DNA of 64,000 nt from Bacillota bacterium (lineage in GTDB: Bacteria > Bacillota > Clostridia > TANB77 > CAG-465). How positions within the stretch are numbered: position 1 is the stretch's first letter; every line of letters starts with the position of its first letter. Position numbers and translations under genes: made by a program. Below the pieces are notes generated by a model. It worked only from the letters and a program-made list of their open reading frames with translations. It ran no database searches and was not told the origin of the DNA. Location of the stretch: assembly GCA_023410645.1 (NCBI GenBank), contig JAEYPQ010000040.1, positions 20,265 to 84,264 on the forward strand, in the 5' to 3' direction. Positions 10,226 through 26,710 of this stretch are shown one piece after another.

Positions 10226-10237
10226 AGAGGTGAAAAT

Positions 10238-11041
10238 ATGAATATTTTTTTAAGAGAAATGAATGCCAATAAAAAGGCACTTATAATATGGTCTATATGT
10301 ATGATATTATTTGTGTGGATGGGAATGCAAAAATATGAAGCATTTGTTGGAGATGGAACAAACATGGCAAATTTTAGTCAGATGATGGATTCAATGCCAA
10401 AAGTTTTGCAAACACTGTGGGGAATTTCTAAATTTGATATTACAAGTCCAATAGGATTTTTTGGAATAATATATCCTTTTTTACTATTAATGGGTGGAAT
10501 ACATGCCGGGATGTTAGGTGCGGGTATAATTTCAAAAGAAGAAAGAGATAAAACTGTTGAATTTTTAATGGCAAAACCTGTATCAAGGAATAAAATTATG
10601 ACTGCTAAAATAATGGCAGTACTTACAAATTTAATAGTATTTAATATTGTTACTTATATTACATCATTTGTTATATTAAATCAATTATCAAATAATTCAT
10701 TTATATCATCAATAATACTTACTATGATAGGAACGTTTTTTGTTCAAGTTCTATTTGCTATAATTGGTGTAGGATTTGCAGCTATGAGTAAAAATTATAA
10801 AAAATCTGGATCTATGACTGTTTTTATACTTTTAGGAAGTTATTTGTTATCCGCTTTTATAGATATGAGTGATAAATTCAATATTTTAAGTGTTTTAACA
10901 CCATTTAAATATTTTGATGGAAAAGAACTTCTTGTTGATAAAACTTTAAATGTTGGATATACTTTATTAACTTTAGCTATTATAATCTGTATTTTAGTAT
11001 TTTCATATAGAAAATACACAAAAAGAGATCTTAATTTCTAA
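10238..11041 (+). CDS. ABC-2 family transporter permease (second copy)
   Basis: Paralogous to 9437..10225: same N-terminus MNIF/YL.E..AN and same conserved AKP(V)SRNK motif. Confidence 0.65.
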   Translation: MNIFLREMNANKKALIIWSICMILFVWMGMQKYEAFVGDGTNMANFSQMMDSMPKVLQTLWGISKFDITSPIGFFGIIYPFLLLMGGIHAGMLGAGIISKEERDKTVEFLMAKPVSRNKIMTAKIMAVLTNLIVFNIVTYITSFVILNQLSNNSFISSIILTMIGTFFVQVLFAIIGVGFAAMSKNYKKSGSMTVFILLGSYLLSAFIDMSDKFNILSVLTPFKYFDGKELLVDKTLNVGYTLLTLAIIICILVFSYRKYTKRDLNF

Positions 11042-11194
11042 TATTTATTATTAATTAAAGAAAGATATAAAATATAAATAAAACAGATCTTATGTATTTT
11101 TTATTGTCATTTTTTATAATAAATGTTAATATATAAAAAGATCTTATGAATTAATATAGTTTTGAAATCCGTCAATATATAAAGGAGTGATATA

Positions 11195-11917
11195 ATGCCA
11201 TCATGGGTTATACATCTAAAAATAGCAGAAGAAATTAATAAAGAATTAAAATTAAATGATAGTATATATAAATTTGGGAGTGTTATGCCAGATGCTGAAG
11301 GATATGTTGTAAATAATCTATCTCAAAACATATCATATGATATATCTCATTATGCTTGTTTACAAAATATAAATGAAATGAAATTTATTTTACCAAATAA
11401 AGATAAATTTCTAATGTCACATAAAAAAGATATAAATAATGATTTGATTTTGGGATATTTTTCGCATATACTTGCAGATTATTTTTTTAATTTTAATACC
11501 TTTAAATATAAATATATATGTGATGATAACGAAAATATTATTGGAGTTATATTAAAGAATAATGAAGATTACTATACTGATAAAAGAAGTATAATGTCTT
11601 TAAAACAAAATGATTTTGAAAAATTTTCTAGAAAAATATATAAAAACATAGATAACAAAATAAAAGAAGAAGATATTGATAAAATATTAGAAAGTTGTAA
11701 AATTATAGAAGAGATAAATTATGACAGAGAAGATATAATAAAAATAATAGAGTATGTTAATAACATAAAATTTGAATATGACAAAAAAGATATAAATGAG
11801 TTTGATTACAGTATATATAGTGAAAAGGATTTAGAAAATATGTTAGATAATTGTATAAAATATATAAAAAATGAAATTCTGAATTTATATGATTATTTAA
11901 ATAAATTTGTAAATTAA
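11195..11917 (+). CDS. Hypothetical protein, possibly a Zn-dependent phospholipase-C-like or metal-dependent hydrolase fold
   Basis: N-terminal W..H (SWVIHLKIAEEI) and an HILADYF motif. The assignment is weak. Confidence 0.3.
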   Translation: MPSWVIHLKIAEEINKELKLNDSIYKFGSVMPDAEGYVVNNLSQNISYDISHYACLQNINEMKFILPNKDKFLMSHKKDINNDLILGYFSHILADYFFNFNTFKYKYICDDNENIIGVILKNNEDYYTDKRSIMSLKQNDFEKFSRKIYKNIDNKIKEEDIDKILESCKIIEEINYDREDIIKIIEYVNNIKFEYDKKDINEFDYSIYSEKDLENMLDNCIKYIKNEILNLYDYLNKFVN

Positions 11918-12051
11918 TATTTATCTTATAATTTTTAACAATAATATAAAAGAAACAAGAAAGTATATTAAATATAAAAGAAAATATAAAATTGAGCACC
12001 ATATTCTGGTGCTCAATTGTTATAATTATTCGTAAATGTAATAATGATAAA

Positions 12052-12912
12052 TTATTTTATTCTTCTTTTAAGTTCATCTATAATACTTAATTCTGTTATG
12101 TGTAGATTGTTATTTTTTCCTGTGCCAAGTTGTACATCTGGTTTTACTATTGGTCCATGGTAATCGCTTCCACCACTAACAAATAGGCCAAGTTTTTCTG
12201 CAATTCGTAGGGTTCGTTGTGTATAAATAGCATCATGACTACTATGATATGCTTCAATTGCCTCCAATCCATAAGATGCCAAAGTATATACGTACTTTTC
12301 AATCCAATCAATATCCCGTTTTAGTGTTATATTATGGGCAAGAGAAGCTATTCCACCGGCCTGTATAATATATTTTATACATTCATAATCTGTAAGTTCG
12401 ATTTTCTTTTTATATTTTGGCACTTCATTGAATATTGTAAAGGCATCTTTTACAGTTCTGACATGACCATATTTTACCATTAATTTTGCAATATCGGGTC
12501 TTCCAACTGATCCTGATGAAAAATATATCTTTTCTAAATCACTATTATGAAAATTAATATTTTTGTATTTCATTAATTGTTCTATAATGAACCTAATACG
12601 GTCAATATTGTCTTTACGTATCAATTCAGTTATAAAATTAAGATTTGGATCATTTAAAGAAATTCCATAACCTAGAATATGGAGTTGTCCGCCTTTAAAT
12701 TGTGCACCGAGCTCAATACCAGGTATTATTTTTATATTACTAAAATTGTTATTATTGATTGCTTCTTTTGCACCTAAAATTGTATCGTGATCAGTTATAG
12801 ATATTATTGATATATTTTTATCACTAGAATATTCTAATAATTCATGAGGTGTAAGTTCACCATCCGAATATGTGCTGTGAATATGCATATCTATTAAATT
12901 ATCTTCTTTCAT
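12052..12912 (-). CDS. PHP-domain metal-dependent phosphoesterase
   Basis: N-terminal MHIHSTYSDG motif, and GGIASLAHN and DYHG motifs. Confidence 0.75.
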   Translation of the reverse strand: MKEDNLIDMHIHSTYSDGELTPHELLEYSSDKNISIISITDHDTILGAKEAINNNNFSNIKIIPGIELGAQFKGGQLHILGYGISLNDPNLNFITELIRKDNIDRIRFIIEQLMKYKNINFHNSDLEKIYFSSGSVGRPDIAKLMVKYGHVRTVKDAFTIFNEVPKYKKKIELTDYECIKYIIQAGGIASLAHNITLKRDIDWIEKYVYTLASYGLEAIEAYHSSHDAIYTQRTLRIAEKLGLFVSGGSDYHGPIVKPDVQLGTGKNNNLHITELSIIDELKRRIK

Positions 12913-12948
12913 ATGGATAATCTCCCTTCTACTATTTTTTTATATATT

Positions 12949-12962
12949 AGTTATATATAACT
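12949..12962. promoter_or_regulatory. Perfect 14-bp palindrome AGTTATATATAACT in a divergent LysR intergenic region, candidate LysR box
   Basis: Read directly from the sequence. It lies between the divergently transcribed PHP gene and the LysR gene. Confidence 0.35.
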
Positions 12963-13049
12963 TAACTATTATTACTACTTGTATTATACATCAAATTGTA
13001 TTATAATTAAAATATATATTAATTATGTTTAATATAAGGAGATGTTATT

Positions 13050-13949
13050 ATGAAAGTAGATATTGAACTATATAGAGTGTTTTATGAAGTAGCTGAGCAA
13101 AAAAATATAACTAAAGCATCTGAAGTATTATATATTTCACAACCAGCTGTAACTATGAGTATAAAAAAATTAGAAGAACAATTAGAAATGACTTTATTTA
13201 TAAGAACAAAAAGAGGGGTTATTCTAACTAATGAAGGTAAAGTACTATATGATTATGTAAAAGATGCAATTGAAAGTTTAAAAATTGGTGAAAATAGAAT
13301 ATTAAATTTAAAAAAATTAGAAAGTGGAAATATTAGAATAGGTATAGGAACAATTCTTACAAAGTTTTTTTTAATGGAACATTTAGAAAAATTTCATAAA
13401 GACTATCCTAAAATTACAATAAATATTGATACAACTAGTACAGATGAAATGCTTAAAAATTTAGAAAATGGCAAATTAGATATGGCTGTAATTGCAACAG
13501 ATAAAATGAAATATAAAAATTTTGATATTGTTTATTCTGAGGAAATTCAAGATATTTTTATATCTAATAGAGAGTTTGCAAATATTACAGATAAATCAAT
13601 TAATTTAGAAGAACTAAATAATTATCCTTTGTTGCTACAAAATGTAAGTACAACGTCAAGACAATTTTTAGATAAATTTACAGAAAGCAATGGAATAAAA
13701 TTAAAAAGTATAATGGATCTTGCAAGCTATTCTTTAGTTGTTGAATTTGTAAAAATTGGCTTTGGAATTGGATTTGTAACAAGAAGATATGTTGAAAAGG
13801 AGCTAAAAGAAAATACATTATTTGAAATAAAAACTTATCCTAAGATTCCATCTAGAAAGATTGTAGTTTTAACTAAAAAAGATTATTTGCCAAGTTTTAG
13901 TGTTTCAAAACTAATTAATATAATGAGAGAAAATAATAACAAAAAATAA
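13050..13949 (+). CDS. LysR family transcriptional regulator
   Basis: N-terminal HTH (ITKASEVLYISQPAVTMSIKKLEEQL) with a substrate-binding domain after it. AGGAG RBS. Confidence 0.8.
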   Translation: MKVDIELYRVFYEVAEQKNITKASEVLYISQPAVTMSIKKLEEQLEMTLFIRTKRGVILTNEGKVLYDYVKDAIESLKIGENRILNLKKLESGNIRIGIGTILTKFFLMEHLEKFHKDYPKITINIDTTSTDEMLKNLENGKLDMAVIATDKMKYKNFDIVYSEEIQDIFISNREFANITDKSINLEELNNYPLLLQNVSTTSRQFLDKFTESNGIKLKSIMDLASYSLVVEFVKIGFGIGFVTRRYVEKELKENTLFEIKTYPKIPSRKIVVLTKKDYLPSFSVSKLINIMRENNNKK

Positions 13950-14096
13950 TTACATATTTTATATAATATCCTTTACAAATTTAGATAAAAATGATAATAT
14001 ATAAACAAACGTTTTAAATGTAATTTAAATATGTAAATTATTTATATTGTAAATTAACTTAACAATAAAATAGAAATTTTTAGGTGGTGAAATAAT

Positions 14097-14813
14097 ATGG
14101 CAATGTGGAATCCATGGAGAGGTTGTAAAAAATGTAGTGATGGTTGTAAATATTGCTATATTCATAAAGGCGATTTAAAAAGAAATGTTAATACAAATGA
14201 TATTGTGAAGACAAAAGATTTCAATAAACCAATAGAAAAACTTAAAAATGGTAGTTATAAAATTAAGTCTGGTATTGTTTATCTGTGCTTTTCAACAGAT
14301 TTTTTTATTGAAGAAGCAGATCACTGGAGAAATGAATGCTGGAAAATTATAAAAGAAAGATCAGATTTAATATTTTTATTTTTAACTAAAAGAATAGACA
14401 GATTCTTTAAATGTATCCCAGATGATTGGAAGGATGGATATGATAATGTCGTTATATGTTGTACTATTGAAAATCAAAAAAATGCTGATTATAAATTGGA
14501 GATTTTTAGAAATTTACCAATAAAACATAAATGTATTACCGTTCAACCTTTACTTGAAAAAGTTGATATTCAAAAGTATTTAGATAACATTGAATTAGTA
14601 GTTGTTGGCGGAGAATCTGATTTTAATGCTAGACCTTTAGATTATAATTGGGTATTGGACATTAGAGAACAATGTATAAGTAAAAAAGTAGAATTTGAAT
14701 TTAGGCAATGTGGAACACATTTTATAAAAGATGGAAAAGAGTATACATTGCAAACAAAGGATTTGTGTAAACAAGCTAAATTGGCAAATATTGATTATCG
14801 TATAAAAAAATAA
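14097..14813 (+). CDS. DUF5131 / phage Gp37/Gp68-family protein
   Basis: N-terminal W-NPW-GC..CS.GC.YCY cysteine cluster characteristic of PF07505. GGTGG RBS. Confidence 0.6.
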   Translation: MAMWNPWRGCKKCSDGCKYCYIHKGDLKRNVNTNDIVKTKDFNKPIEKLKNGSYKIKSGIVYLCFSTDFFIEEADHWRNECWKIIKERSDLIFLFLTKRIDRFFKCIPDDWKDGYDNVVICCTIENQKNADYKLEIFRNLPIKHKCITVQPLLEKVDIQKYLDNIELVVVGGESDFNARPLDYNWVLDIREQCISKKVEFEFRQCGTHFIKDGKEYTLQTKDLCKQAKLANIDYRIKK

Positions 14814-14911
14814 ATAAAAGAATTATTTTATATTAATATGATCTGTAATATTAGGGTTATAACTTATTATAATAAATATAAATACTATTTTATTAAAGAG
14901 GAGGAACTTTA

Positions 14912-15514
14912 ATGGGAAATATAGAAAAATTTGATGCGATAGCTAATTGCTATGATACATATGAAAGGCTTCAAACAACTAAAATAATAGTAGAGAAAAT
15001 AAAAAAGTATATTGGTAATAAAAAAAATAGTGTAGCTATGGATTTTGGTTGTGGAACTGGTCTTATTGGTATGCAATTAATTGATAATTTTTCATCAATG
15101 ATATTTATTGATGCATCTTATTCTATGATTGAACAAGTTAATGAAAAAATAAGAGAAAATAAGATTTCTAGTGCTAAGACAATTTGCTATAATTTTGAAG
15201 AACATGAAGATATTAATATTAAAAGTGATTATATTATTATTGTTCAAACATTATTACATATAAAGGATATAGAATTAATATTATCAAGGTTATTTAAAAT
15301 TTTAAATAATAATGGACACTTGATTATTGTTGATTTTAATAAAAATGACTTTATAACTTCAAATGAAGTTCATAATGGATTTGATCAAAATGAACTAGGT
15401 AAAATTTTAAAAAATATAGGATATGATGATGTAAAATCTGAAACCTTTTATTTTGGAGAAAATATATTTATGGGGAATGATGCGTCATTATTTATACTTG
15501 ATTGTAAAAAATGA
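14912..15514 (+). CDS. Class I SAM-dependent methyltransferase
   Basis: Motif I DFGCGTGLIG. GGAGG RBS. Confidence 0.75.
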   Translation: MGNIEKFDAIANCYDTYERLQTTKIIVEKIKKYIGNKKNSVAMDFGCGTGLIGMQLIDNFSSMIFIDASYSMIEQVNEKIRENKISSAKTICYNFEEHEDINIKSDYIIIVQTLLHIKDIELILSRLFKILNNNGHLIIVDFNKNDFITSNEVHNGFDQNELGKILKNIGYDDVKSETFYFGENIFMGNDASLFILDCKK

Positions 15515-15560
15515 AATTTAGTGATAAAAACTGAATTTATTAGATGAAGGAGAATTATAA

Positions 15561-16196
15561 ATGGTTAATATAAGAAATGAAAAGGAAACGGATTATAAGA
15601 AAGTAGAAGAAATTACAAGAAAATCTTTTTACAATTTATATATTCCGGGATGTGTTGAACATTATTTGGTCCATATTATGCGAGAACATAAAGATTTTTT
15701 ACCAGAATTAGATTTTGTAATTGAAATTGATGGTAGTATTATTGGAAATATAATGTATACAAAAGCAAAATTAGTTGATGAAGATAGAAATGAAAAAGAA
15801 ATTTTAACATTTGGTCCAATTTGCATTTTACCAGAATACCAAAGAATGGGCTATGGAAAAATGTTACTAAACCATTCTTTTGAAAAAGCCAAAGAGCTTG
15901 GTTATGATGTTATAGTGATATTTGGTAATCCAAATAATTATGTAAGTCGAGGATTTAAGAGTTGTAAAAAATATAATGTCTGTCTTGATAATGGTAAATA
16001 TCCGGCGGCGATGATGGTAAAAGAGCTTAAATCAAATGTATTAGACGGAAGGAAATGGATTTATTATGATAGTCCAGTTATGCAACTTGACGAAAAGCAA
16101 GTACAAATATTTGATGATGGATTAGAGAAAATGGAAAAAATATATCAACCAAGTCAAGAGGAATTTTATATAAATAGTCAGGCTTTCTTGGATTAG
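15561..16196 (+). CDS. GNAT family N-acetyltransferase
   Basis: QRMGYGKMLLNHSFEKAKELG motif. Confidence 0.7.
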   Translation: MVNIRNEKETDYKKVEEITRKSFYNLYIPGCVEHYLVHIMREHKDFLPELDFVIEIDGSIIGNIMYTKAKLVDEDRNEKEILTFGPICILPEYQRMGYGKMLLNHSFEKAKELGYDVIVIFGNPNNYVSRGFKSCKKYNVCLDNGKYPAAMMVKELKSNVLDGRKWIYYDSPVMQLDEKQVQIFDDGLEKMEKIYQPSQEEFYINSQAFLD

Positions 16197-16372
16197 GTTT
16201 TTTTACTGGTATAAATAGCACTAAATGGACTAGATAAATTTAGATGGAAAAATAAAATTTGCGACTTTTATTCGTGTAAATTTATGTAATAAAATTTTGG
16301 ATTATAAATTTTATAAATATAATATTTAATTATATAATTTGAATTAAATAAAATCAATAGGAGGAATAATAA

Positions 16373-16738
16373 ATGAATAATTTATTTATAGAATATCCAA
16401 AATGTTCAACTTGTCAAAATGCAAAGAAATGGTTATTAGCAAACAATATACAATTTACTAGTAGAAATATTATAGAACAAACTCCTACTATACAAGAACT
16501 AGAAATATGGATAAAAATTAGTGGACAAGATATAAAAAAGTGGTTTAATACAAGTGGATTAAAATATAAAGATTTAAATTTAAAAGAACATCTATCTAAA
16601 ATGAATCAAAATGAAAAGTTAAAATTACTATCAAGTGATGGTATGCTTATCAAAAGACCATTATTAATTCTTAAAGATACTATATTAATTGGTTTTAAAG
16701 AAAACCAATGGCAGGAATTTTTAAAAAATAACAATTAA
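16373..16738 (+). CDS. ArsC/Spx-family (thioredoxin-fold) protein
   Basis: N-terminal CxxC (PKCSTCQNAKKWL) and an LIKRPLLI motif. 121 aa. Confidence 0.6.
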   Translation: MNNLFIEYPKCSTCQNAKKWLLANNIQFTSRNIIEQTPTIQELEIWIKISGQDIKKWFNTSGLKYKDLNLKEHLSKMNQNEKLKLLSSDGMLIKRPLLILKDTILIGFKENQWQEFLKNNN

Positions 16739-16792
16739 AATAAAAAATAAGATTGAAATCAATAAATAAAGAATTTTATTGGAGGTAAAAAA

Positions 16793-19579
16793 ATGTGGAA
16801 TGTAAATGCAGTTAAGAAATCTTTATTTGATAAAAATATAGATTCCTCTACATATAATCCTAATATTGTAATCAATGAGCAAAGTAAAAATATAAAAGAT
16901 AAAATTAAAGAATTATTAAATAAATCTACTCGTGTGGACATTGCTGTTAGTTATGTAGTTTGGTCTGGATTATCTTTAATTTATGAAGATTTAAAAAAGT
17001 TTGATTCTAATAGTCGTTTAATACTAACAACAGAGGGGATGGTTACAGATCCTAGATCTTTAAATAAGTTAAATGAATTAAATATGGAAGTTAAGATTTA
17101 TATACCTAATGTGGATAGTAAAGGATTTCATTTAAAGACATATTTATTTGAAACTGATAATAATACAACATTATTAATAGGTAGTTCAAATATTTCTGCT
17201 CGCGCATTCGGTTTAGTACATGAAATGGTGGCAGAAATAAATGCAAAAAATGAAGGTTATATTATAGAAAAGTATAATAATACATTTAATGATCTTTGGA
17301 ATGATAAATGTTCAGAAGTATTAACTGAGGAATTTATTTACAATTATTCAAATATTTATACTCAAAATAAAAAAATTGAAATTAATGTTGCTAAGATGTT
17401 TTTAGAAGTAAAAAATATCAAACCGAATTATATGCAAGAGAGAGCTTTAGAAGCTTTAAAAGAGTGTAGGGAAGTGAGTAATAGAGGTTTAGTTATAGCA
17501 GCTACTGGTACTGGTAAAACATATTTATCTGCTTTTGATGTAAAAAATTGTAATGCAAAAAAGGTATTGTTTTTAGTTCATAACAGACTGATTTTAACAT
17601 CTGCTATAGAAACATATAAAAAAATATTTAAAAATAAAACTATGATAGAATTAGATTCAAACAATATGGAGAAAATTCATAATTTCGATTTCATTTTCAC
17701 AACTGATAAAACAGCATACAATAAACTTATAAGTAATATTCCAAATAATTACTTTGATTATATTATATATGATGAAGCTCATAAGATAGGATTTGATACA
17801 AAATATAGAGACATTATTGATTATTTTAATCCTAAATTTACTTTAGGTATAACTGCAACTCCTGAACGAACTGACAATCCTGATTATTTGTTCAAAATTT
17901 TTAAATATAATATTCCATATGAGATAAGGCTTTTAGATGCAATGAATCATGAATTGGTGTGTCCATTTACTTATTATGGTTTAAATTTAGAAAATAAATT
18001 ATTGAAAAGTAATGAAGAATTTAATTATGAAGAATTAGCAAAATATATTAAAAATACAATTGATAAAAAAGGCCATTATGGTGAAAAACTAAAATGTTTA
18101 GTTTTTTGTTCAAATATTAAAGAGGCAAATTCAGTTTCTTCACAATTAAATAATTTGGGATTTATATCTGTTAGTGCTGTTAGCGGTGAAAATGAATTAA
18201 CTAGAAGTGGTATAGAAAAATATATAATAGATTTAAAATCAGATGAAAAAGGAACTTTAGAAATAATATGTACTGTTAATAAATTTAATGAAGGTATTGA
18301 TATTCCTGATATTAATACAATAATTATGCTTAGAAACACAATATCTGCAATAATATATATTCAGCAATTAGGCCGTGGTTTAAGACGAACTGAGGACCCT
18401 CATAAGTATGTAACTGTTTTTGATATAATTGGTAATTCTAAAAATAATTATTCTATTGCTCAAGTATTAACTGGAAATACTACCGTTGATAAAAGAAAAC
18501 TATATATGTATGCTAATAAAGGATTTGAGACAGTTTCACCTTTTATTAATGTTGAAATAGAAAAAGAAGCAATGGAGAAGATAATTAGATCCATTTCAGT
18601 CAATTTTACAGTAAAGAATGAATTAATGGAAAAATTCAGAAATGAATTTTATAGGTTTGAAGTAATTCCTACTTTAAAAGAAATGTACTTAAATCCAAAT
18701 TTTAAAGAAATGGAATTATTACAATTATTGTTTAAAAATTTCTATGAACCTTTTAAAGAATATTATTTTAGAAAATATAACATTGAAAAAGAAAATAAAT
18801 TTTTGGATAATTTTTTTACGCTTATTACTCAATTTGTATTTAGAGGATACAATTCTGTAACATTACAGGAGTATGTTAAATTATTAAAAGGGGATAAAAT
18901 TCAAAATGATAAGTTAAGAAAAATATTACTCCCTTACGAGTTTGAAGATGGTATTTCAACTGCAATAAATAGTGAATACAACAAAAAGGGAAAAGAATTT
19001 CCAAAAATCTTTGAGTTTGAAAATGGATATTTAAAACTAAACAATGAAATCGTAATTTTATTGAAAAAATATAAAAGTATTGAATTATTTAATGAGCATA
19101 TAGAATTATTTGAGTATTTAGGTGAAAATAATGATTATACTATGAAATTATTTGATTTGGTAGATAAAGGTGAATTTTTATATAATCTTGACAGTAAAGA
19201 CTGCTATATGAATGTTACAGGTGAAAGAATAGATAAAGAAAAAAAGACTGTATATTGTATTGTTAAAGTTACTGAAAAAGAAACATTCTATGATAATTAC
19301 ATAGTGGATAATAATAAGATTATATATTATACAAAGGCTTCTAAAACCAAGGAAGCAGCATGTGAAAAAATAAGAGTGATTATTGAAGAGAATTATAAAT
19401 TTTATTTATGTGCACAATTTCCACATTTAGGTTATTCTAACACATCGTACTTTAATCTAGGTAATGTTAAGGTAAACAAAATTTCAGAAGTGCAAAAGGT
19501 AGATGATGGAAAATATAATCATAGAATAGAATTTATTGTAGAACGTGATATACCTTTTGAGTTGTTGCAATATAAATAG
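16793..19579 (+). CDS. SauUSI-like Type IV (modification-dependent) restriction endonuclease: PLD nuclease, SF2 helicase/ATPase, DUF3427-like C-terminal domain
   Basis: HKD motif GFHLKTYLF...LLIGSSNIS. Walker A AATGTGKT. DEAH box YDEAHK. Helicase motif VI QQLGRGLRR. Roughly 330-aa C-terminal extension. Single gene with its own GGAGG RBS. Confidence 0.65.
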   Translation: MWNVNAVKKSLFDKNIDSSTYNPNIVINEQSKNIKDKIKELLNKSTRVDIAVSYVVWSGLSLIYEDLKKFDSNSRLILTTEGMVTDPRSLNKLNELNMEVKIYIPNVDSKGFHLKTYLFETDNNTTLLIGSSNISARAFGLVHEMVAEINAKNEGYIIEKYNNTFNDLWNDKCSEVLTEEFIYNYSNIYTQNKKIEINVAKMFLEVKNIKPNYMQERALEALKECREVSNRGLVIAATGTGKTYLSAFDVKNCNAKKVLFLVHNRLILTSAIETYKKIFKNKTMIELDSNNMEKIHNFDFIFTTDKTAYNKLISNIPNNYFDYIIYDEAHKIGFDTKYRDIIDYFNPKFTLGITATPERTDNPDYLFKIFKYNIPYEIRLLDAMNHELVCPFTYYGLNLENKLLKSNEEFNYEELAKYIKNTIDKKGHYGEKLKCLVFCSNIKEANSVSSQLNNLGFISVSAVSGENELTRSGIEKYIIDLKSDEKGTLEIICTVNKFNEGIDIPDINTIIMLRNTISAIIYIQQLGRGLRRTEDPHKYVTVFDIIGNSKNNYSIAQVLTGNTTVDKRKLYMYANKGFETVSPFINVEIEKEAMEKIIRSISVNFTVKNELMEKFRNEFYRFEVIPTLKEMYLNPNFKEMELLQLLFKNFYEPFKEYYFRKYNIEKENKFLDNFFTLITQFVFRGYNSVTLQEYVKLLKGDKIQNDKLRKILLPYEFEDGISTAINSEYNKKGKEFPKIFEFENGYLKLNNEIVILLKKYKSIELFNEHIELFEYLGENNDYTMKLFDLVDKGEFLYNLDSKDCYMNVTGERIDKEKKTVYCIVKVTEKETFYDNYIVDNNKIIYYTKASKTKEAACEKIRVIIEENYKFYLCAQFPHLGYSNTSYFNLGNVKVNKISEVQKVDDGKYNHRIEFIVERDIPFELLQYK

Positions 19580-19715
19580 TTAATATTATTAAATATTAAA
19601 AAAATAAAAATAGTATATTATTCAGTAGTATTTAGAATTTGACTTCTTAATAATTCTATGATAATATTAAATGAAATTTTTAGTATTCTTTATATAATTT
19701 AAGGAGGAGTATTTT

Positions 19716-20303
19716 ATGCTTAAAGAGGAAAATTTAGCAGAGAAAATTAATAGTTTAGATCGTGTAACAACAGAAATCAGAAATAAATATTTCAAAGGTA
19801 AAAATTTTAAATATATTCGAGATTGGCTAGAAAATCACAACATAAATAAACACACTTTTATAGAGCTTGAATGTGCGGGTGTAGCTATACTTATATCTAA
19901 ACCTGGTGAAATTGAAAAAGTATTAGTACAGATTCGTTCTAGTGAAGATAATAGAATGGGATTTTTTGGTGGTGGGATTGAAGATGGCGAGTCATCAATA
20001 GATGCTGCTATAAGAGAGTTAAAAGAAGAAAGTGGTATAGAGATTTCTGGAACACAACTCGAATTTATAGAGATAAATGAGCATGATCTTGAATATAAGA
20101 ATGGTGATAAAGTATTTTATAAATCATATATATATTTACTTAAATTGGATTACTATCCTTTTATTAAAATTGATAATGAATCAAATGGATTTATGCTTAT
20201 TTCAAAAGAAAATTATAAAAATTTTACTTATTTGAAAGATACTAAATTATTTCAGTTACAACCATATTTATGGGAAACTTTAGTAAAAATTTTGAAATTG
20301 TAA
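19716..20303 (+). CDS. NUDIX hydrolase
   Basis: Nudix box GGGIEDGESSIDAAIRELKEESGI (GX5EX7REUXEEXGU). Confidence 0.8.
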   Translation: MLKEENLAEKINSLDRVTTEIRNKYFKGKNFKYIRDWLENHNINKHTFIELECAGVAILISKPGEIEKVLVQIRSSEDNRMGFFGGGIEDGESSIDAAIRELKEESGIEISGTQLEFIEINEHDLEYKNGDKVFYKSYIYLLKLDYYPFIKIDNESNGFMLISKENYKNFTYLKDTKLFQLQPYLWETLVKILKL

Positions 20304-20329
20304 TGAAATAATGAAGCAAGTGAACAAAA

Positions 20330-20343
20330 CGAAAATTTGTTCG
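20330..20343. promoter_or_regulatory. Near-consensus LexA/Cheo box CGAAAATTTGTTCG (one mismatch from CGAAC-N4-GTTCG)
   Basis: Sits inside a GAACAAA/TTTGTTC inverted repeat, about 235 bp upstream of uvrB. It could alternatively be part of the terminator for the NUDIX gene. Confidence 0.3.
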
Positions 20344-20576
20344 CTTTTTCTTGCTTTTTTATGCGATAAGTGATAAAATAATAATATATAAATAAACAAT
20401 TTTAAAATTGAGTATTTTGCAAAATGCTATGACTACAAATTTGAATCCAAATTCGTCTCAAGGCAAAAAAACACAATTTTGAGAGTAAAAAATTAAAATT
20501 GAGACAAATCTTGAGATTGATTTTTTTAAAAAAGTTGGTTGATAGTTATTGTAATCAATCAAAAAAGGAGGTAAAT

Positions 20577-22529
20577 ATGTTCAAATTACATTCAAAATAT
20601 AGCCCAAGTGGAGACCAACCACAGGCAATAGAAAAATTAGTTGAAGGAATTAATAAAGGTGAAAGGCATCAAACTTTACTTGGTGCAACTGGTACTGGAA
20701 AAACATTCACAATAGCAAATATAATTCAACAGGTGAACAAACCAACAATAGTAATGGCACATAATAAGACATTAGCTGGACAACTTTACTCAGAATTTAA
20801 AGAGTTATTTCCAGAAAATGCAGTAGAATATTTTATCAGCTATTACGACTATTATCAACCGGAAGCATATATTGCATCAACTGATACATATATAGAAAAA
20901 GATAGTAGTATAAACGATGAAATTGATAAACTTAGACATAGTGCGACAGCAGCATTATTTGAAAGGAAAGATGTAATCATTATAGCAAGTGTATCTGCAA
21001 TATATTCACTTGGTTCACCAGAAGATTACTCTAATTTGGTATTATCAGTTAGACCAGGAATGAAAAAATCAAGAGAAGATGTTTTAAAAAGTTTAATTGA
21101 AATGCAATATGAAAGAAATGATATTGAATTTGTAAGAGGTAAATTTAGAGTAAAAGGAGATATCGTTGATGTATTTCCAGCAGATAACAGTGAAGATGCA
21201 ATAAGACTTGAATTTTTTGGAGATGAAATAGAAAAGGTGAGTATAATTGAGGCAATTACAGGTAAAGTGAAAGCCTTATCAAAGCATGAATTTATATATC
21301 CAAAATCACATTATGTTATTCCAAGAGAAAAAATAGATGATGCCTTAGTAAAGATTGAAAAAGAATTAGAGGAAAGAGTAAAATATTTTAAGGAACACGA
21401 TAAGATTGTAGAAGCATATAGAATTGAACAAAGAACTAATTTTGACATGGAAATGTTACGTGAAACTGGATTTTGTCAAGGTATAGAAAACTATTCAGCA
21501 ATTTTAACAGGAAGAGAAACTGGTAGTACGCCATATACTTTATTTGATTATTTTGGAGATGATTTTTTAGTTGTTGTTGATGAATCTCATGTTACAATAC
21601 CACAAATTAGAGGGATGTATAATGGTGATAGAGCAAGAAAAGAATCTCTTATTGAAAATGGATTTAGATTACCTTCTGCTTTTGATAATAGACCACTTAG
21701 ATTTAATGAATGGGAATCAAAGGTTAAACAGGCAATATATGTAAGTGCAACACCAGCAGATTATGAGAAGGAAAACTCTGCACAAATTGCTGAACAAATT
21801 ATACGTCCTACTGGATTACTTGATCCTGAGATAATTGTAAAACCAACAGAAGGACAAATTGAAGATTTAACCAACAATATCCATGAGATAGCACAAAAAG
21901 GGCAAAGAGTTTTAGTTACTACTTTAACTAAGAAAATGGCAGAAGAACTTTCTAGTTATTTTAGTGATAAGGGAATAAAGGTAAGATATATGCATTCTGA
22001 TATTGAAGCTTTAGATAGACTTGAAATTATACGTGAATTAAGACTTGGTAAATTTGATGTATTAGTTGGAATTAATTTGTTAAGAGAAGGACTTGATATT
22101 CCAGAGGTTTCTCTTGTTGCTATATTAGATGCTGATAAAGAAGGATTCTTAAGAAGTGAGAGATCTTTAATTCAAACAATAGGAAGAGCTGCAAGAAATT
22201 CTGATGGAAAAGTAATCATGTATGCAGATGAACTTACTGATTCAATGGATAAGGCTATAACTGAGACAAATAGAAGAAGAAAAATTCAAATGGAATATAA
22301 TGAGAAACATGGTATAACTCCAAAGACTATAATAAAAGATATAAGAGATAGTATAAAAGCAACATTTAGTGCAGAAGAAGAAAAAACGGTTGATGTTAAA
22401 AATGGTGAAAATTTAGAACAAACTATTGAAAGATTAACAGAAGAAATGATGCAGTATGCAAGAAAATATGAATTTGAAAAGGCAGCTACGATACGTGATT
22501 TTATCGAAGAATTAAAAAATATGAAGTAA
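20577..22529 (+). CDS. uvrB: Excinuclease ABC subunit B
   Basis: Start reassigned to [21 protein letters not shown] after an AAGGAGG RBS. Walker A GATGTGKT, and the C-terminal UVR motif [10 protein letters not shown]. Confidence 0.9.
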
Positions 22530-22644
22530 GAAGTATTAATATAAGTACTGTCACATATAATTTACTGGTAAATAATATTTTGTAAAATTGTAATTATTAA
22601 TTTAGTAACTTTTAAATAATTATTTAAATGAAAGGAGAAAAGTC

Positions 22645-23268
22645 ATGTATGAGAATGTACGGAATTTAAAGTTCGAATTTGATAGTATTATTTCTGAATA
22701 TGAAAAACCTTACTTAGATATTAGGAAAAAAGTTTCAGAATTTATAGGATCTTCAATTTTAGATATTGAAGTAAGAAAAGATGTAAGGGAAATATTAATT
22801 GATCTTTATCGTAAAGATTTACTTGATATTGTAGTTGAGGTCTTATGCTCTAAAAGGTACTTAGAATCACCATTTACCCAAAAACCAGAAATTTTTTTGT
22901 ATGAAATTGCAAAGCAAAGTAAATTTAACAGAGTAGATTTGCAGACTAAATACTTAAGGAAACGTGATTCAATTTCAAGAGTAATAGGAATATATAATAC
23001 TTATTTACTTGAGATAATAATCGAGTTTCAAATACTTGTCATTAATATGAAAGAAAATGATTATCCTAAGTTATTAAGAATATTAAAATCAATTAAAGAA
23101 CTAAGATATGTGCAGCCTTTTTTAGATTTACACGTATATGAATTATGTCCACTAAAGTTTGATTCTTTAATCCAATTAACTGAAAGTATTTTAAATTGCA
23201 AGGATAGATTAACTGAAACAGATATAATTGCAGCAATTGAAACGAAGATAGAAGAATTATGTGATTAA
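22645..23268 (+). CDS. Hypothetical protein
   Basis: ORF with an AAGGAG RBS. No recognisable motif. Confidence 0.4.
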   Translation: MYENVRNLKFEFDSIISEYEKPYLDIRKKVSEFIGSSILDIEVRKDVREILIDLYRKDLLDIVVEVLCSKRYLESPFTQKPEIFLYEIAKQSKFNRVDLQTKYLRKRDSISRVIGIYNTYLLEIIIEFQILVINMKENDYPKLLRILKSIKELRYVQPFLDLHVYELCPLKFDSLIQLTESILNCKDRLTETDIIAAIETKIEELCD

Positions 23269-23299
23269 ATTAATATTAGGTTATCTTGTATAAAAACTT

Positions 23300-23334
23300 A
23301 GACACAGTGTAAAATCTGTGTCTTTTTTGTTTTA
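23300..23334 (+). terminator. Rho-independent terminator
   Basis: Stem AGACACAG / CTGTGTCT followed by TTTTTTGTTTT. Confidence 0.75.
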
Positions 23335-23335
23335 A

Positions 23336-23380
23336 AAATATTACATTTATTAAAAATTACGTAATCAAAATGTAATATTT
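23336..23380. repeat. Perfect 13-bp inverted repeat AAATATTACATTT ... AAATGTAATATTT with a 19-bp spacer containing the palindrome TTACGTAA
   Basis: Read directly from the sequence, about 58 bp upstream of the yabP start. Confidence 0.6.
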
Positions 23381-23437
23381 TTTATACTCGTGAATATATA
23401 ATAATATAACATTAGATAAAATATAGAGGTGAAAGAA

Positions 23438-23719
23438 ATGGAAGATAAAAAAAAGGTAGTAACAAATCAAAACATTATAATGGAAAATAGAGAAAAAATA
23501 ACAGTAACAGGTGTAATTGATATACACAGTTTTGATGATGAATTGGTCCTTGCACAAACTGATTTAGGTATTTTAACAATTAAAGGTGACGATTTAAAGA
23601 TGAATAAATTGAATTTAGACAACAATGAATTGATTGTTGAAGGGCAAATAATGGCAGTGGCATACAGTGATATAGCAGGCAATAAAAAAAATGGATTTAT
23701 GAATAAGTTATTCAAATAG
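23438..23719 (+). CDS. yabP: Sporulation protein YabP
   Basis: YabP-family sequence (ENREKITVTGVIDIHSFDDELVLAQTDLGILTIKGDDLKMNKLNLDNNELIVEG). Start set to the ATG after a GAGGTG RBS. Conserved yabP-yabQ-divIC gene order. Confidence 0.8.
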   Translation: MEDKKKVVTNQNIIMENREKITVTGVIDIHSFDDELVLAQTDLGILTIKGDDLKMNKLNLDNNELIVEGQIMAVAYSDIAGNKKNGFMNKLFK

Positions 23720-23734
23720 AAAGAAAAGGGATAT

Positions 23735-24259
23735 ATGTATATTTCAAATGAATTATTTACTTTCTCTAAATTCGTAATTATAGGTATTATTATTTCAATT
23801 ATATTTGATTTTTTTAGAGCATATAGAAAAACAAAAAAGGTCAGTAATACTGTCGTAATAATTCAAGATATAATATATTTCATTATTGCGACAATTATAG
23901 TAACACTTAGCATAATATTTTTCTTAGATTCGGTTATAAGACTATATATTTTTGTAGCCATAATTATTGGTTGTTTAATATATTTGTCTTTTTTCAGCAA
24001 GTATATTATGAAATTTTACATTAATTCAATTAAAACTTTTAAGGCGGCTATCGACTTATTTTTTACTCCAATAAGGCTGTTTATGCAGTTTATTCATATA
24101 ATTTATAATTTTTTGGAAAAATATATAAAAAAATGTTGCAAAATGATAAAAAATATGGTATTGTATTTATACAAACGCATAGTTCACGGGTTAAAGAAGA
24201 TTAGGATAAAGAAAAAAAAGAATACAAAAGAGGGTTCAAAAGATGAAAAAAGTGCATAA
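23735..24259 (+). CDS. yabQ: Spore cortex biosynthesis membrane protein YabQ
   Basis: Small multi-TM protein immediately after yabP and before divIC, as in the Bacillus and Clostridium yabPQ-divIC locus. Confidence 0.6.
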   Translation: MYISNELFTFSKFVIIGIIISIIFDFFRAYRKTKKVSNTVVIIQDIIYFIIATIIVTLSIIFFLDSVIRLYIFVAIIIGCLIYLSFFSKYIMKFYINSIKTFKAAIDLFFTPIRLFMQFIHIIYNFLEKYIKKCCKMIKNMVLYLYKRIVHGLKKIRIKKKKNTKEGSKDEKSA

Positions 24260-24548
24260 TGTTGCTATTAAAAATAATGATAAAAGAAATGGATTAATCA
24301 AAGTAGCTTCTTTATTTTTTGTTGTATATTTTATATATACTATGGTTAATCAACAAATTCAAATTAATAAATATAATTCACAAATACAGATGTATTCTTC
24401 AGATATTGAGTCTAAGCAAAAATTAGTGGAATATTACAAGAATCAGAAAAATAATATTCAAAGTGATCAGTACATAGAATCAGTTGCAAGAGATATTCTT
24501 GGATATGTAAAACCATATGAGAAAATTTTTGTGGATGTTAATAGATAA
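24243..24548 (+). CDS. divIC: Septum formation initiator DivIC/FtsB family
   Basis: Single N-terminal TM followed by a coiled-coil region. Located after yabQ. Confidence 0.65.
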   Translation: MKKVHNVAIKNNDKRNGLIKVASLFFVVYFIYTMVNQQIQINKYNSQIQMYSSDIESKQKLVEYYKNQKNNIQSDQYIESVARDILGYVKPYEKIFVDVNR

Positions 24549-24671
24549 ATATTAGTATATGAAATGGTACGTAAAGTATCATTTTTTTTGTTTTTTTGTT
24601 GCATAATTCTTTTATTTATGATATAAGTTTGCTATGAAAAACATAATGTATTATGATAGAAGGGAGTTAGT

Positions 24672-25403
24672 ATGATTAGTGTTAAAAATCTTACAAAAAA
24701 ATTTGATAGCTTTGCTGCTGTTGATAATTTAAATTTAGACATAAATGATGGTGAAGTTTTTGGGTTACTTGGTGAAAATGGCGCTGGTAAAACAACAACT
24801 TTGAGAATGCTTGCAACTATGTTAAAACCAACTTTTGGTACAGTATTAGTTAATAATTTTGATACTGTTAAAGATGATGAAAAAGTAAGAGAGAATATTG
24901 GAATATTATTTGGAGGAGAAACTGGTCTTTATGATAGGCTTACTGCAAGAGAAAATATTGAGTATTTTGGCGACTTATATGATATGCCAAAAGATGAATT
25001 AAATAAATCAATAAATAAGGTTTCAAAAATACTTGATATGGATGAGTATATAGATAAAAGAGTTGGAAAATTCTCTAAAGGTATGAAACAAAAAACAGCT
25101 TTTGCAAGAGCAACAATTCATAATCCAAAGATATTATTACTTGATGAACCTACATCTGGACTTGACGTTACTGCTGCAAGACAAGTTCATGATTTTATAA
25201 AAGCTTGTAAAGATGAAGGCAGAACTGTAATTTTTTCTTCACATTCCATGGAAGAAGTTGAAAAACTTTGTGATAGAGTAGCAATAATACATAAAGGAAA
25301 GTTATTAGAAGTAGGAACTTTATCAGAATTAAAAGAAAAATATAATGATGATAATCTATCTAATATATTTACTAAACTAATAGAAGATGGAGGAGAAAAG
25401 TAA
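24672..25403 (+). CDS. ABC transporter ATP-binding protein (NatA-like)
   Basis: Walker A GENGAGKTT, signature FSKGMKQK, Walker B LLLDEPTSGLD. Confidence 0.85.
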   Translation: MISVKNLTKKFDSFAAVDNLNLDINDGEVFGLLGENGAGKTTTLRMLATMLKPTFGTVLVNNFDTVKDDEKVRENIGILFGGETGLYDRLTARENIEYFGDLYDMPKDELNKSINKVSKILDMDEYIDKRVGKFSKGMKQKTAFARATIHNPKILLLDEPTSGLDVTAARQVHDFIKACKDEGRTVIFSSHSMEEVEKLCDRVAIIHKGKLLEVGTLSELKEKYNDDNLSNIFTKLIEDGGEK

Positions 25404-26650: not shown

Positions 26651-26668
26651 AAATTTGATACAAAAAAT

Positions 26669-26710
26669 AACTTAAAAAGGTGCTAATCATCCTTTTTAAG
26701 TTATTTTTAT
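26669..26710. terminator. Bidirectional Rho-independent terminator
   Basis: Perfect 12-bp stem AACTTAAAAAGG / CCTTTTTAAGTT with flanking T/A runs, lying between convergent genes. Confidence 0.75.

What the first reader, a model, noticed from the sequence alone, without database searches (positions are those of the whole stretch)
16793..19579. Single-gene PLD-nuclease/SF2-helicase/DUF3427-like protein, likely a SauUSI-family modification-dependent (Type IV) restriction endonuclease
An N-terminal HKD motif (HLKTYLF...GSSNIS) marks a PLD-family nuclease. Central Walker A, DEAH and motif VI residues mark an SF2 translocase. The C-terminal ~330 aa are an extension with no motif I can name. That domain order is the architecture reported for S. 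aureus SauUSI, where the C-terminal domain is an SRA-like 5mC/5hmC reader. No cognate methyltransferase gene is adjacent, which is consistent with a Type IV enzyme. This is a barrier to modified foreign DNA and is relevant for the genetic tractability of this strain.
Basis: partly seen in the sequence, partly recalled or inferred. Interest (0 to 1): 0.6.

Follow-up and report, generated by a model that had tools for sequence, protein, structure and literature searches.

The report
Divergent SauUSI-type Type IV restriction enzyme
This gene encodes an intact relative of the Staphylococcus SauUSI enzyme, which cuts foreign DNA carrying modified bases; it is an ordinary kind of bacterial defence gene, but its base-reading pocket differs from SauUSI's, so the modification it senses is not known.

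Summary
ORF 16793-19579 (+, 928 aa) is a full-length homologue of SauUSI: phmmer to PDB 7CLG gives E 3.6e-87 over residues 7-872, PADLOC mREase_IV gives 4.6e-87, and an AlphaFold model (pLDDT 87) matches 7CLG at Foldseek E 5.7e-53. The PLD H-x-K-x4-E/GSSN motif, Walker A, DEAH and motif VI are intact. The C-terminal ~330 aa are a helical coupler followed by an SRA-fold recognition domain, whose top fold hits are SUVH6, SUVH5 and SauUSI.

Pfam DUF3427 is not matched at threshold (20.0 bits against 27.7). The gene belongs to a small, separate clade. In this clade the cytosine-reading Asp of SauUSI (D858) is an invariant Asn (N835). The methyl-contacting Tyr (Y831) is a Glu (E811). An Asn at this pocket position also occurs in the 5hmC-specific PvuRts1I. 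Specificity therefore cannot be assumed to be 5mC.

Relatives nearly always have a MutT-like NUDIX gene just upstream or fused. That linkage was already published for SauUSI. Here the NUDIX gene is missing and an ArsC/Spx-like gene sits in its place. No DNA methyltransferase motif occurs in the window. dN/dS against a 95%-identical relative is 0.10.

Verdict: a new member of a known kind, of modest interest.

The parts
16793..19579 (+). Complete SauUSI-family gene (928 aa plus stop codon)
   Evidence: ORF list and translation. 7CLG E 3.6e-87. PADLOC mREase_IV. An identical protein, P0001, is present in public assemblies.
16781..16785 (+). Shine-Dalgarno GGAGG, 7 nt before the ATG
   Evidence: Read directly from the sequence.
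16793..17347 (+). PLD-family nuclease domain (aa 1-185) with a single HKD motif, which implies a homodimeric active site
   Evidence: Pfam PLDc_2 at 39-169. [quoted passage not shown]
17129..17191 (+). Catalytic motif H113-x-K115-x4-E120 ... G130-S-S-N133
   Evidence: Regex on the translation. H113, K115, G130, S131 and N133 are invariant in 64 clade members. Equivalent to SauUSI 119-HxK(x)4E-126.
17417..18610 (+). SF2 helicase-like ATPase/translocase (aa 209-606, two RecA-like lobes)
   Evidence: Pfam ResIII and Helicase_C. Foldseek matches to 7CLG, RadD, HsdR and LlaBIII.
17507..17521 (+). Walker A motif, GTGKT (aa 239-243)
   Evidence: invariant in the clade.
17771..17782 (+). Motif II, DEAH (aa 327-330)
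18362..18385 (+). Motif VI, QQLGRGLR (aa 524-531)
18611..19147 (+). Alpha-helical coupler domain (aa 607-785)
   Evidence: The AF2 model is largely helical across 591-778, with pLDDT mostly 85-97. hhalign of coupler plus TRD against the canonical SauUSI-like C-termini: 301 columns, 93% probability. SauUSI coupler is residues 618-805 (PMC7913695).
19148..19576 (+). SRA-fold target-recognition domain (aa 786-928), a divergent relative of the DUF3427 TRD
   Evidence: CTD model pLDDT 91.4. Foldseek top hits are 6a5n, 3q0c and 7clg_B, all SRA domains. hhalign 93%. PF11907 scores 20.0 bits, below the 27.7 cut-off.
19223..19225 (+). Codon for E811, at the position of SauUSI Y831 (the proposed methyl contact)
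   Evidence: The phmmer and hhalign alignments agree. E in 62/64 clade members; Y in 35/37 canonical members.
19289..19297 (+). Y833-D834-N835. N835 is at the position of SauUSI D858 / SUVH5 D418, the Watson-Crick-edge reader
   Evidence: N in 64/64 clade members; D in 36/37 canonical members. The spacing Y-x-(D/N)-x9-(Y/W) equals that of SauUSI (856/858/868) and SUVH5 (416/418/428) (PMC7913695, PMC4157451).
19325..19327 (+). Codon for Y845, at the position of SauUSI W868 / SUVH5 Y428 (stacks on the flipped base)
   Evidence: Y in 63/64.
16373..16738 (+). Upstream ArsC/Spx-family gene. It sits where relatives carry the MutT-like NUDIX gene and travels with the nuclease gene in the closest relative. 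A functional link is not shown
   Evidence: Pfam ArsC and NCBIfam TIGR01617 at 102.7 bits. L006 4110-7461 matches window 16301-19575 at 90-94% identity although the flanking genes differ.
19716..20303 (+). Downstream 195-aa NUDIX gene. Probably an unrelated neighbour, not the family's MutT-like partner
   Evidence: Shares only the NUDIX box with the partner NUDIX of relatives. Lies 2.5 kb upstream of the nuclease gene in L006.
20318..20346 (+). The only terminator-like hairpin in the region. A possible end of an ArsC-like / nuclease / NUDIX transcription unit
   Evidence: 1 found against 0.3 expected in shuffles.

Best explanation
The gene encodes an intact, single-polypeptide, ATP-dependent, modification-dependent (Type IV) restriction endonuclease of the SauUSI family. 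The mechanism below is inferred by homology to SauUSI.

Two subunits dimerise through their N-terminal PLD domains, and the two H-x-K motifs form the nuclease site. The C-terminal SRA-fold domain flips a modified base out of incoming DNA into a pocket. There the base is sandwiched by Y833 and Y845 and read by N835. Recognition is passed through the helical coupler to the SF2 ATPase. The ATPase then translocates double-stranded DNA and brings the nuclease to cleavage sites, shredding the modified DNA. The host is spared because it lacks that modification.

Shown here: the homology, the domain order, the intact catalytic motifs, the SRA fold, the absence of a methyltransferase nearby, and purifying selection. 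Inferred: dimerisation, ATP dependence, base flipping and the defence phenotype.

The modification recognised is not established. It is probably a modified cytosine. However, the clade-wide Asp->Asn and Tyr->Glu changes in the pocket make plain 5mC less certain than for SauUSI, and an Asn at the Asp position has a precedent in the 5hmC-specific PvuRts1I.
For: - Full-length homology: phmmer to 7clg_A gives E 3.6e-87 over residues 7-872. PADLOC mREase_IV gives 4.6e-87.
- Structure: AF2 model pLDDT 87.2, pTM 0.81. Foldseek to 7CLG gives E 5.7e-53, ~950 columns, TM 0.60-0.68.
- Catalytic motifs are intact and invariant in 64 clade members. They match the published SauUSI active-site residues H119 and K121.
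- The CTD model (pLDDT 91.4) hits only SRA domains at the top of the list. hhalign to canonical DUF3427 TRDs gives 93% probability, E 3e-7.
- The SRA signature Y-x-(D/N)-x9-(Y/W)-x-T is kept in register.
- No DNA methyltransferase is nearby.
- dN/dS against the 95%-identical orthologue in L006 is 0.10 overall and 0.04 in the TRD.
- The clade is scattered across Bacillota, Mycoplasmatota and Fusobacteriota. The gene sits in a variable stretch between a DUF5131 gene and uvrB. Both are typical of mobile defence genes.
- Relatives share the MutT-like NUDIX partner already described for SauUSI (PMC3141236).
Against: - Pfam DUF3427 is not reached at the gathering score.
- An HMM of the TRD finds nothing among PDB sequences at E<=10. 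It finds only 12 proteins, all of this clade, among 1.84 billion representatives.
- The two SauUSI residues proposed to give cytosine and methyl specificity are replaced.
- The NUDIX partner is missing here.
- The immediate neighbours are housekeeping genes (uvrB, NUDIX, ArsC-like), not a defence island.
- No biochemical or phenotypic test of this enzyme or its clade turned up in the two literature searches made.
Confidence: 0.8

Rival explanations
1. It is functionally the same as SauUSI. It reads 5mC/5hmC in a short sequence context and would block Dcm-methylated plasmids, and the pocket substitutions are neutral.
For: The architecture and the SRA fold are the same. Asn can still form a two-hydrogen-bond contact with the N3/N4 edge of cytosine (inference from hydrogen-bond chemistry). 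PvuRts1I, with Asn at this position, still reads a cytosine derivative (PMC4157451). The aromatic stacking pair is retained.
Against: D858 and Y831 are nearly invariant in 37 canonical SauUSI-like proteins. The replacements N835 and E811 are equally fixed in 64 clade members, a pattern expected of a specificity switch rather than drift. The TRD is only 14% identical to canonical TRDs. PvuRts1I, with Asn at this position, discriminates strongly against 5mC (2000:8:1, PMC4157451).
Confidence: 0.35
2. It is a DNA-repair or recombination helicase-nuclease, not a defence enzyme. Databases label relatives 'Hef nuclease' or 'DEAD/DEAH box helicase', and the gene lies beside uvrB and a NUDIX gene.
For: uvrB lies 0.9 kb downstream. 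There are weak NCBIfam hits to Hef, RadD and XPB-type helicases. The name 'Hef nuclease' is given to P0013.
Against: All NCBIfam repair-family hits are far below their cut-offs (for example Hef 42 bits against 610). The best matches by a wide margin are SauUSI and PADLOC mREase_IV. An SRA-fold base-flipping domain is a modified-base reader. The position relative to uvrB and NUDIX is not conserved even in the 95%-identical relative. The taxonomic distribution is patchy.
Confidence: 0.05
3. It is a decaying or inactive remnant. It has lost its NUDIX partner and no longer restricts DNA.
For: The MutT-like NUDIX gene found upstream of all 8 distinct relatives with upstream sequence, and fused to the nuclease in Fusobacterium, is absent here and in L006.
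Against: The length is complete (928 aa against 924-936 for most of the clade). All catalytic motifs are intact. dN/dS is 0.10. In S. aureus, deleting the nudix gene did not give the transformable phenotype of the sauUSI deletion (PMC3312211).
Confidence: 0.07

Closest known systems
SauUSI (S. aureus SAUSA300_2431; PDB 7CLG), an ATP-dependent Type IV restriction endonuclease
   Same: Both are single polypeptides with the same four domains in the same order: PLD nuclease, SF2 ATPase, helical coupler and SRA-fold TRD. Sequence homology runs the full length (E 3.6e-87; about 25% identity in the Foldseek alignment). The H-x-K-x4-E, Walker A, DEAH and motif VI residues are identical in type. Neither has a cognate methyltransferase. 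Clade relatives share the linked MutT-like NUDIX gene (PMC3141236, PMC7913695).
   Different: The TRD is only remotely similar: 14% identity, Pfam DUF3427 below threshold, and no HMMER link to 7CLG's TRD. Pocket residues differ: Y831->E811, D858->N835, W868->Y845, M829->T809. The NUDIX partner is absent at this locus, where an ArsC/Spx-like gene precedes the nuclease gene. The protein is 25 aa shorter.
Canonical DUF3427-bearing SauUSI-like proteins of Clostridium, Peptacetobacter and Methanosarcina (e.g. P0083, P0104)
   Same: 34-39% identity over the N-terminal 61-72% of the protein (PLD plus ATPase), and the same overall length class.
   Different: They match PF11907 strongly (276.6 bits for P0083) and also PF26350. 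The window protein and its ~75 clade clusters match neither.
PvuRts1I/AbaSI family (5hmC- and glucosyl-5hmC-specific Type IV enzymes)
   Same: Both have an SRA-like reader domain with an Asn (PvuRts1I N217) at the position of the SRA Asp, preceded by aromatic-x (PMC4157451). AbaSI is among the Foldseek hits of the CTD model (E 1.5e-2, 17% identity).
   Different: Those enzymes have a different (non-PLD) nuclease domain and no ATPase. They are ATP-independent, cut at a fixed distance from the site, and are about 300 aa long. The window protein is not a member; only the pocket chemistry is comparable.
CglI/NgoAVII-type ATP-dependent restriction enzymes (PLD nuclease plus SF2 helicase)
   Same: Both use a PLD nuclease together with an SF2 helicase-like ATPase (PMC7913695).
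   Different: Those are two-subunit R2H2 enzymes with a B3-type sequence-reading TRD and a cognate methyltransferase. Here everything is in one chain, the TRD has an SRA fold, and there is no methyltransferase.

Membership tests
SauUSI family (Type IV, ATP-dependent) | Full-length sequence homology to SauUSI | tested here: met
   phmmer against 7clg_A: E 3.6e-87, query 7-872 aligned to 12-896. PADLOC mREase_IV PDLC03658: 290.7 bits.
SauUSI family (Type IV, ATP-dependent) | N-terminal PLD nuclease with a single H-x-K-x4-E motif plus GSxN | tested here: met
   H113, K115, E120, G130-S-S-N133. PLDc_2 41.1 bits against cut-off 27. Matches SauUSI 119-HxK(x)4E-126.
SauUSI family (Type IV, ATP-dependent) | SF2 DExH helicase-like ATPase with Walker A, DEAH and motif VI | tested here: met
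   ResIII 121.4 bits, Helicase_C 38.2 bits. Motifs located and invariant in the clade.
SauUSI family (Type IV, ATP-dependent) | Alpha-helical coupler between the ATPase and the TRD | tested here: met
   The AF2 model is largely helical across 591-778. Foldseek alignment to 7CLG spans ~950 columns. hhalign of coupler plus TRD: 301 columns, 93%.
SauUSI family (Type IV, ATP-dependent) | C-terminal TRD with an SRA fold | tested here: met
   CTD model pLDDT 91.4. Top Foldseek PDB hits: SUVH6 at 1.3e-4, SUVH5, SauUSI 7clg_B at 5.3e-4, KYP, AbaSI, UHRF1, TagI.
SauUSI family (Type IV, ATP-dependent) | TRD matches Pfam DUF3427 (PF11907) at the gathering score | tested here: not met
   No hit on the full-length protein at E<=1. 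The last 128 aa alone score 20.0 bits against 27.7, E 4.5e-4, profile positions 151-278. Canonical P0083 scores 276.6 bits.
SauUSI family (Type IV, ATP-dependent) | 5mC pocket residues of SauUSI (Y831, D858, W868) conserved | tested here: not met
   The window has E811, N835 and Y845. Clade: E 62/64, N 64/64. Canonical: Y 35/37, D 36/37. The aromatic stacking positions and their spacing are retained.
SauUSI family (Type IV, ATP-dependent) | No cognate DNA methyltransferase | tested here: met
   Neighbours annotated. No C5 or N6/N4 methyltransferase motif in any ORF >=90 aa of the 64 kb. The rest of the genome was not available.
SauUSI family (Type IV, ATP-dependent) | Linked MutT/NUDIX gene (frequent in the family, not essential) | tested here: not met
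   Absent upstream in the window and in L006. Present in 8/8 other distinct clade loci and fused in Fusobacterium. Reported as dispensable for the restriction barrier in S. aureus (data not shown in PMC3312211).
SauUSI family (Type IV, ATP-dependent) | ATP-dependent cleavage of modified DNA only; homodimer | not testable with these tools
   Needs biochemistry. No multimer prediction was available.
Type I / ISP / III restriction-modification enzymes | Methyltransferase domain or subunit coupled to the translocase | tested here: not met
   Only partial, sub-threshold NCBIfam hits to the helicase region (EcoAI R subunit 101 bits against 550). No methyltransferase domain in the protein or next to it.
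PvuRts1I/AbaSI family | Family-specific (non-PLD) N-terminal nuclease plus SRA-like domain, ATP-independent, about 300 aa | tested here: not met
   The architecture here is PLD plus SF2 ATPase. Only the SRA-like domain and the Asn at the pocket position are shared (PMC4157451).

The most novel reading that the evidence does not exclude
The clade this gene belongs to (about 75 clusters at 90% identity; only 12 representatives among 1.84 billion proteins) is a SauUSI-type translocating nuclease whose SRA pocket has been retuned. An invariant Asn replaces the cytosine-reading Asp and a Glu replaces the methyl-contacting Tyr. Under this reading the enzyme senses a modification other than plain 5mC, for example 5hmC or glucosyl-5hmC as in PvuRts1I, or a hypermodified pyrimidine of phage DNA. 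That would make it the first ATP-dependent SauUSI-type enzyme with a distinct modification specificity. The tightly linked or fused MutT/NudG-like NUDIX of its relatives might then remove the matching modified dNTP from the nucleotide pool.
Probability: 0.35. Interest if true: 0.5.

Novelty: new member of a known kind. Interest (0 to 1): 0.3.

Why it matters
- **Practical use.** An intact Type IV enzyme is a likely barrier to introducing DNA prepared in standard E. coli hosts into this low-GC, spore-forming Bacillota organism. Because the pocket differs from SauUSI's, simply using a dcm-minus donor may or may not help. The enzyme's substrate should be tested.
- **Wider use.** The Asp->Asn / Tyr->Glu signature gives a cheap sequence marker for a SauUSI subfamily that current Pfam models miss in the recognition domain. 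If its specificity is new, it would add a translocating, shredding enzyme to the set of modified-base readers.
- **As it stands.** It is a correct but routine annotation.

Tried and rejected
1. **The downstream 195-aa NUDIX (19716-20303) as the family's partner: rejected.** It shares only the NUDIX box with the MutT-like partner (28 aligned residues). In the 95%-identical relative L006 it lies 2.5 kb upstream of the nuclease gene.
2. **The NUDIX linkage or fusion as a new finding: rejected.** Xu et al. 2011 already reported SAUSA300_2432 and at least 60 linked cases. Monk et al. 2012 deleted the gene and saw no effect on the restriction barrier.
3. **HMM of the TRD against PDB sequences.** No hit at E<=10, so sequence alone could not settle the SRA question. 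The fold search did.
5. **Promoter scan.** Uninformative in this AT-rich DNA: 37 sites found against 39 expected.
6. **Rfam scan.** Nothing at gathering score in the 64 kb.
7. **The upstream class-I methyltransferase (14912-15514) as a cognate methylase: rejected.** It has a small-molecule methyltransferase profile and no DNA-methyltransferase motifs, and it is absent from L006.
8. **Bridging through the intermediate group P0076-P0080.** These also lack a PF11907 hit in the current Pfam, and BLASTP of the C-terminus to P0078 is weak (E 1e-4).
Full report
**Observation**

The window has an uninterrupted ORF at 16793-19579 on the + strand. It starts with ATG and encodes 928 aa. A GGAGG ribosome-binding site lies 7 nt upstream. 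The DNA is about 24% G+C, so stop codons are frequent and an ORF this long is not a chance event.

- HLKTYLFE...GSSN at aa 113-133
- GTGKT at 239-243
- DEAH at 327-330
- TATP at 354-357
- QQLGRGLR at 524-531

Pfam places PLDc_2 at 39-169, ResIII at 209-359 and Helicase_C at 428-531, all above their gathering scores. It finds nothing in the last ~330 aa of the full-length protein.

**What the protein is**

The protein is homologous to SauUSI along almost its whole length.
- phmmer against PDB sequences gives 7clg_A at E 3.6e-87, with query 7-872 aligned to SauUSI 12-896. The next hit is a Type I HsdR fragment at 1.4e-15.
- PADLOC's Type IV model mREase_IV (PDLC03658) scores 290.7 bits over residues 6-808.
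- NCBIfam gives only partial, far sub-threshold hits to Type I R subunits, RadD and Hef.
- An AlphaFold2 model built on 64 clade sequences is confident (pLDDT 87.2, pTM 0.81). Its best PDB match is SauUSI: Foldseek E 5.7e-53, about 950 aligned columns, TM 0.60-0.68. All other hits cover only the helicase core.

The published SauUSI structure (PMC7913695) defines these domains: nuclease 1-191, ATPase from 221, helical coupler 618-805 and SRA-fold TRD 806-953. The corresponding parts here are aa 1-185, 209-606, 607-785 and 786-928. SauUSI's active-site motif 119-HxK(x)4E-126 corresponds to H113-x-K115-x4-E120. These residues, GSSN, Walker A, DEAH and motif VI are invariant in the 64-sequence clade alignment.

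**The C-terminal domain**

- Pfam DUF3427 is not matched by the full-length protein. The last 128 aa alone give 20.0 bits (E 4.5e-4) to profile positions 151-278, below the 27.7-bit cut-off.
- A profile of the clade's last 154 aa finds nothing among PDB sequences at E<=10.
- Among 1.84 billion representative proteins the same profile finds only 12 matches, all members or fragments of this clade.
- hhalign of the clade TRD against the TRDs of 37 canonical DUF3427 proteins gives 93% probability, E 3e-7, 132 columns and 14% identity. Coupler plus TRD gives 93% over 301 columns.

The extension is therefore a coupler plus an SRA-fold TRD. It is homologous to SauUSI's but very divergent.

**A distinct clade with a changed pocket**

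The homologue search shows a sharp break. About 75 clusters are 48-100% identical to the query. The full-length ones are mostly 924-936 aa, and none has a precomputed PF11907 or PF26350 hit. After them identity drops to <=40%. Canonical SauUSI-like proteins carrying both domains align only over the N-terminal 61-72%.

The SauUSI paper names M829, Y831, F841, I842, D858 and W868 as lining the 5mC pocket. D858 reads the cytosine edge, Y831 contacts the methyl group, and W868 stacks on the base. The phmmer alignment and the independent hhalign alignment place these residues at T809, E811, Y821, C822, N835 and Y845.

Column counts are as follows.

| Position (SauUSI / window) | 37 canonical proteins | 64 clade members |
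|---|---|---|
| Y831 / E811 | Y in 35 | E in 62 |
| D858 / N835 | D in 36 | N in 64 |
| W868 / Y845 | A in 28, W in 9 | Y in 63 |

The alignment register is supported by spacing. Y833-x-N835-x9-Y845 parallels SauUSI Y856-x-D858-x9-W868 and SUVH5 Y416-x-D418-x9-Y428 (residue numbers from PMC7913695 and PMC4157451).

**Context**

The neighbours, in order, are:
- a LysR regulator
- a DUF5131 protein
- a generic class-I SAM methyltransferase
- a GNAT acetyltransferase
- an ArsC/Spx-family protein (16373-16738)
- the nuclease gene
- a 195-aa NUDIX (19716-20303)
- uvrB
- yabQ

This is chromosomal housekeeping context in a spore-forming Bacillota organism, not a defence island. No ORF of >=90 aa in the 64 kb has C5 or N6/N4 DNA-methyltransferase motifs.

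In relatives the picture differs in one respect. A 128-134-aa MutT/NudG-like NUDIX gene lies 2-30 nt upstream in all 8 distinct clade loci that include upstream DNA. It is fused to the N-terminus in Fusobacterium proteins of 1049-1056 aa. The partner from L001 just reaches the NCBIfam MutT cut-off (98.6 bits against 97.9).

This linkage is not new. Xu et al. 2011 noted the MutT/NUDIX gene next to sauUSI and at least 60 similar cases. Monk et al. 2012 found that deleting it did not yield the transformable phenotype of the sauUSI deletion. Of two canonical loci I checked, one has a NUDIX_4 gene nearby on the opposite strand and one has none.

In the window and in its closest relative the MutT-like gene is absent and the ArsC/Spx-like gene precedes the nuclease gene. 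That relative is L006, a Bacillota MAG whose protein is 94.6% identical. The ArsC-like/nuclease pair is conserved as a block (L006 4110-7461 matches window 16301-19575). Around it the genes differ, and the 195-aa NUDIX sits on the other side. That NUDIX shares only the NUDIX box with the MutT-like partner. Its adjacency here is therefore most likely coincidental.

**Is it functional?**

The length is complete and every catalytic motif is intact. Nei-Gojobori dN/dS against the L006 orthologue is 0.10 overall: PLD 0.22, ATPase 0.09, coupler 0.09, TRD 0.04. The gene is under purifying selection despite lacking the NUDIX partner. The only terminator-like hairpin nearby is at 20318-20346, after the 195-aa NUDIX. 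The promoter scan was uninformative.

**Mechanism**

The mechanism is inferred from SauUSI biochemistry (PMC3141236, PMC7913695, bioRxiv 10.1101/2025.10.16.682607).
1. A homodimer is held together by the PLD domains, which form the nuclease site from the two HxK motifs.
2. The SRA-fold TRD flips the modified base into its pocket.
3. Recognition activates the SF2 ATPase through the coupler.
4. The motor translocates dsDNA, with looping.
5. The nuclease cuts at distal sites, at preferred sequences or at DNA ends. Repeated cycles shred the DNA.

Homology, domains, motifs and fold are shown here. Everything dynamic is inferred.

**Comparison, novelty and verdict**

The protein works like SauUSI and meets the family's architectural and catalytic criteria. 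It fails two narrower tests: the Pfam DUF3427 threshold, and conservation of SauUSI's Y831/D858 pocket residues. I file it as a new member of a known kind. It belongs to an uncharacterised, rare subfamily whose substrate modification is unknown.

The caveat is that 5mC/Dcm sensitivity should not be assumed. Interest is modest (0.3). The most novel reading still open is a retuned specificity, at about 0.35 probability.

Noticed in passing
L001 5592-5993; L003 5612-5998; L005 5604-5993; L008 627-1010; L009 4282-4665; L010 2079-2447; L011 3-353; L013 1071-1445; fusion proteins P0027, P0029, P0058: Every clade relative with upstream sequence has a 128-134-aa MutT/NudG-like NUDIX gene a few nucleotides upstream of the nuclease gene. 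In Fusobacterium it is fused to the N-terminus. The window (16739-16792 is only a 54-nt gap after an ArsC/Spx-like gene) and L006 lack it. The linkage is published, but its function is still unknown.
   Followed up: yes
window 14097-16196; L005 9393-11360: A DUF5131 gene (weak hit to 'radical SAM mobile pair protein A') lies upstream of the nuclease gene, followed by a class-I SAM methyltransferase and a GNAT acetyltransferase. In the unrelated Bacilli MAG locus L005, a DUF5131 gene also lies about 2 kb from the clade member, next to Ham1p-like and NTPase_I-T (non-canonical NTP pyrophosphatase) genes. This may be coincidence.
   Followed up: partly
window 20316-20409; L006 168-263 and 3964-4032: A ~95-nt element containing the terminator-like hairpin 20318-20346 occurs once in the window stretch compared (9001-28000) and twice in the related locus L006. 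In L006 it lies at the borders of gene cassettes that are arranged differently in the two genomes. This suggests recombination at repeated terminators in this variable region between the DUF5131 gene and uvrB.
   Followed up: partly
L006 7958-8974 and 2395-3895: In the closest relative, the variable region holds a YhcG/DUF1016 PD-(D/E)XK nuclease, a metallo-beta-lactamase-fold protein, and DUF6323 and DUF6179 proteins. All are absent from the window.
   Followed up: partly
L018 3001-8721: P0076 is a member of the intermediate group of homologues (37% identity, no DUF3427 hit). It sits directly upstream of a C5 DNA methylase and a GmrSD-type Type IV enzyme. This hints that this group does not target that methylase's product.
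   Followed up: no
L003/L004 1-14775 (Haploplasma axanthum): Here the NUDIX + SauUSI-like pair lies in a defence-island-like stretch. It contains an nSTAND-type NTPase with a metallophosphatase domain, DUF6119, an AAA_11/AAA_12 helicase with DUF2726, ADP-ribosylglycohydrolase genes, a resolvase and two N6/N4 DNA methyltransferases.
   Followed up: no
window 3585-6371: A second ORF of exactly 928 aa is unrelated to the nuclease. It has only weak hits to Ig-like, PKD and FGE-sulfatase domains and is probably a surface protein.
   Followed up: partly
window 1-64000: No Rfam family reaches its gathering score anywhere in the 64 kb on either strand.
   Followed up: yes
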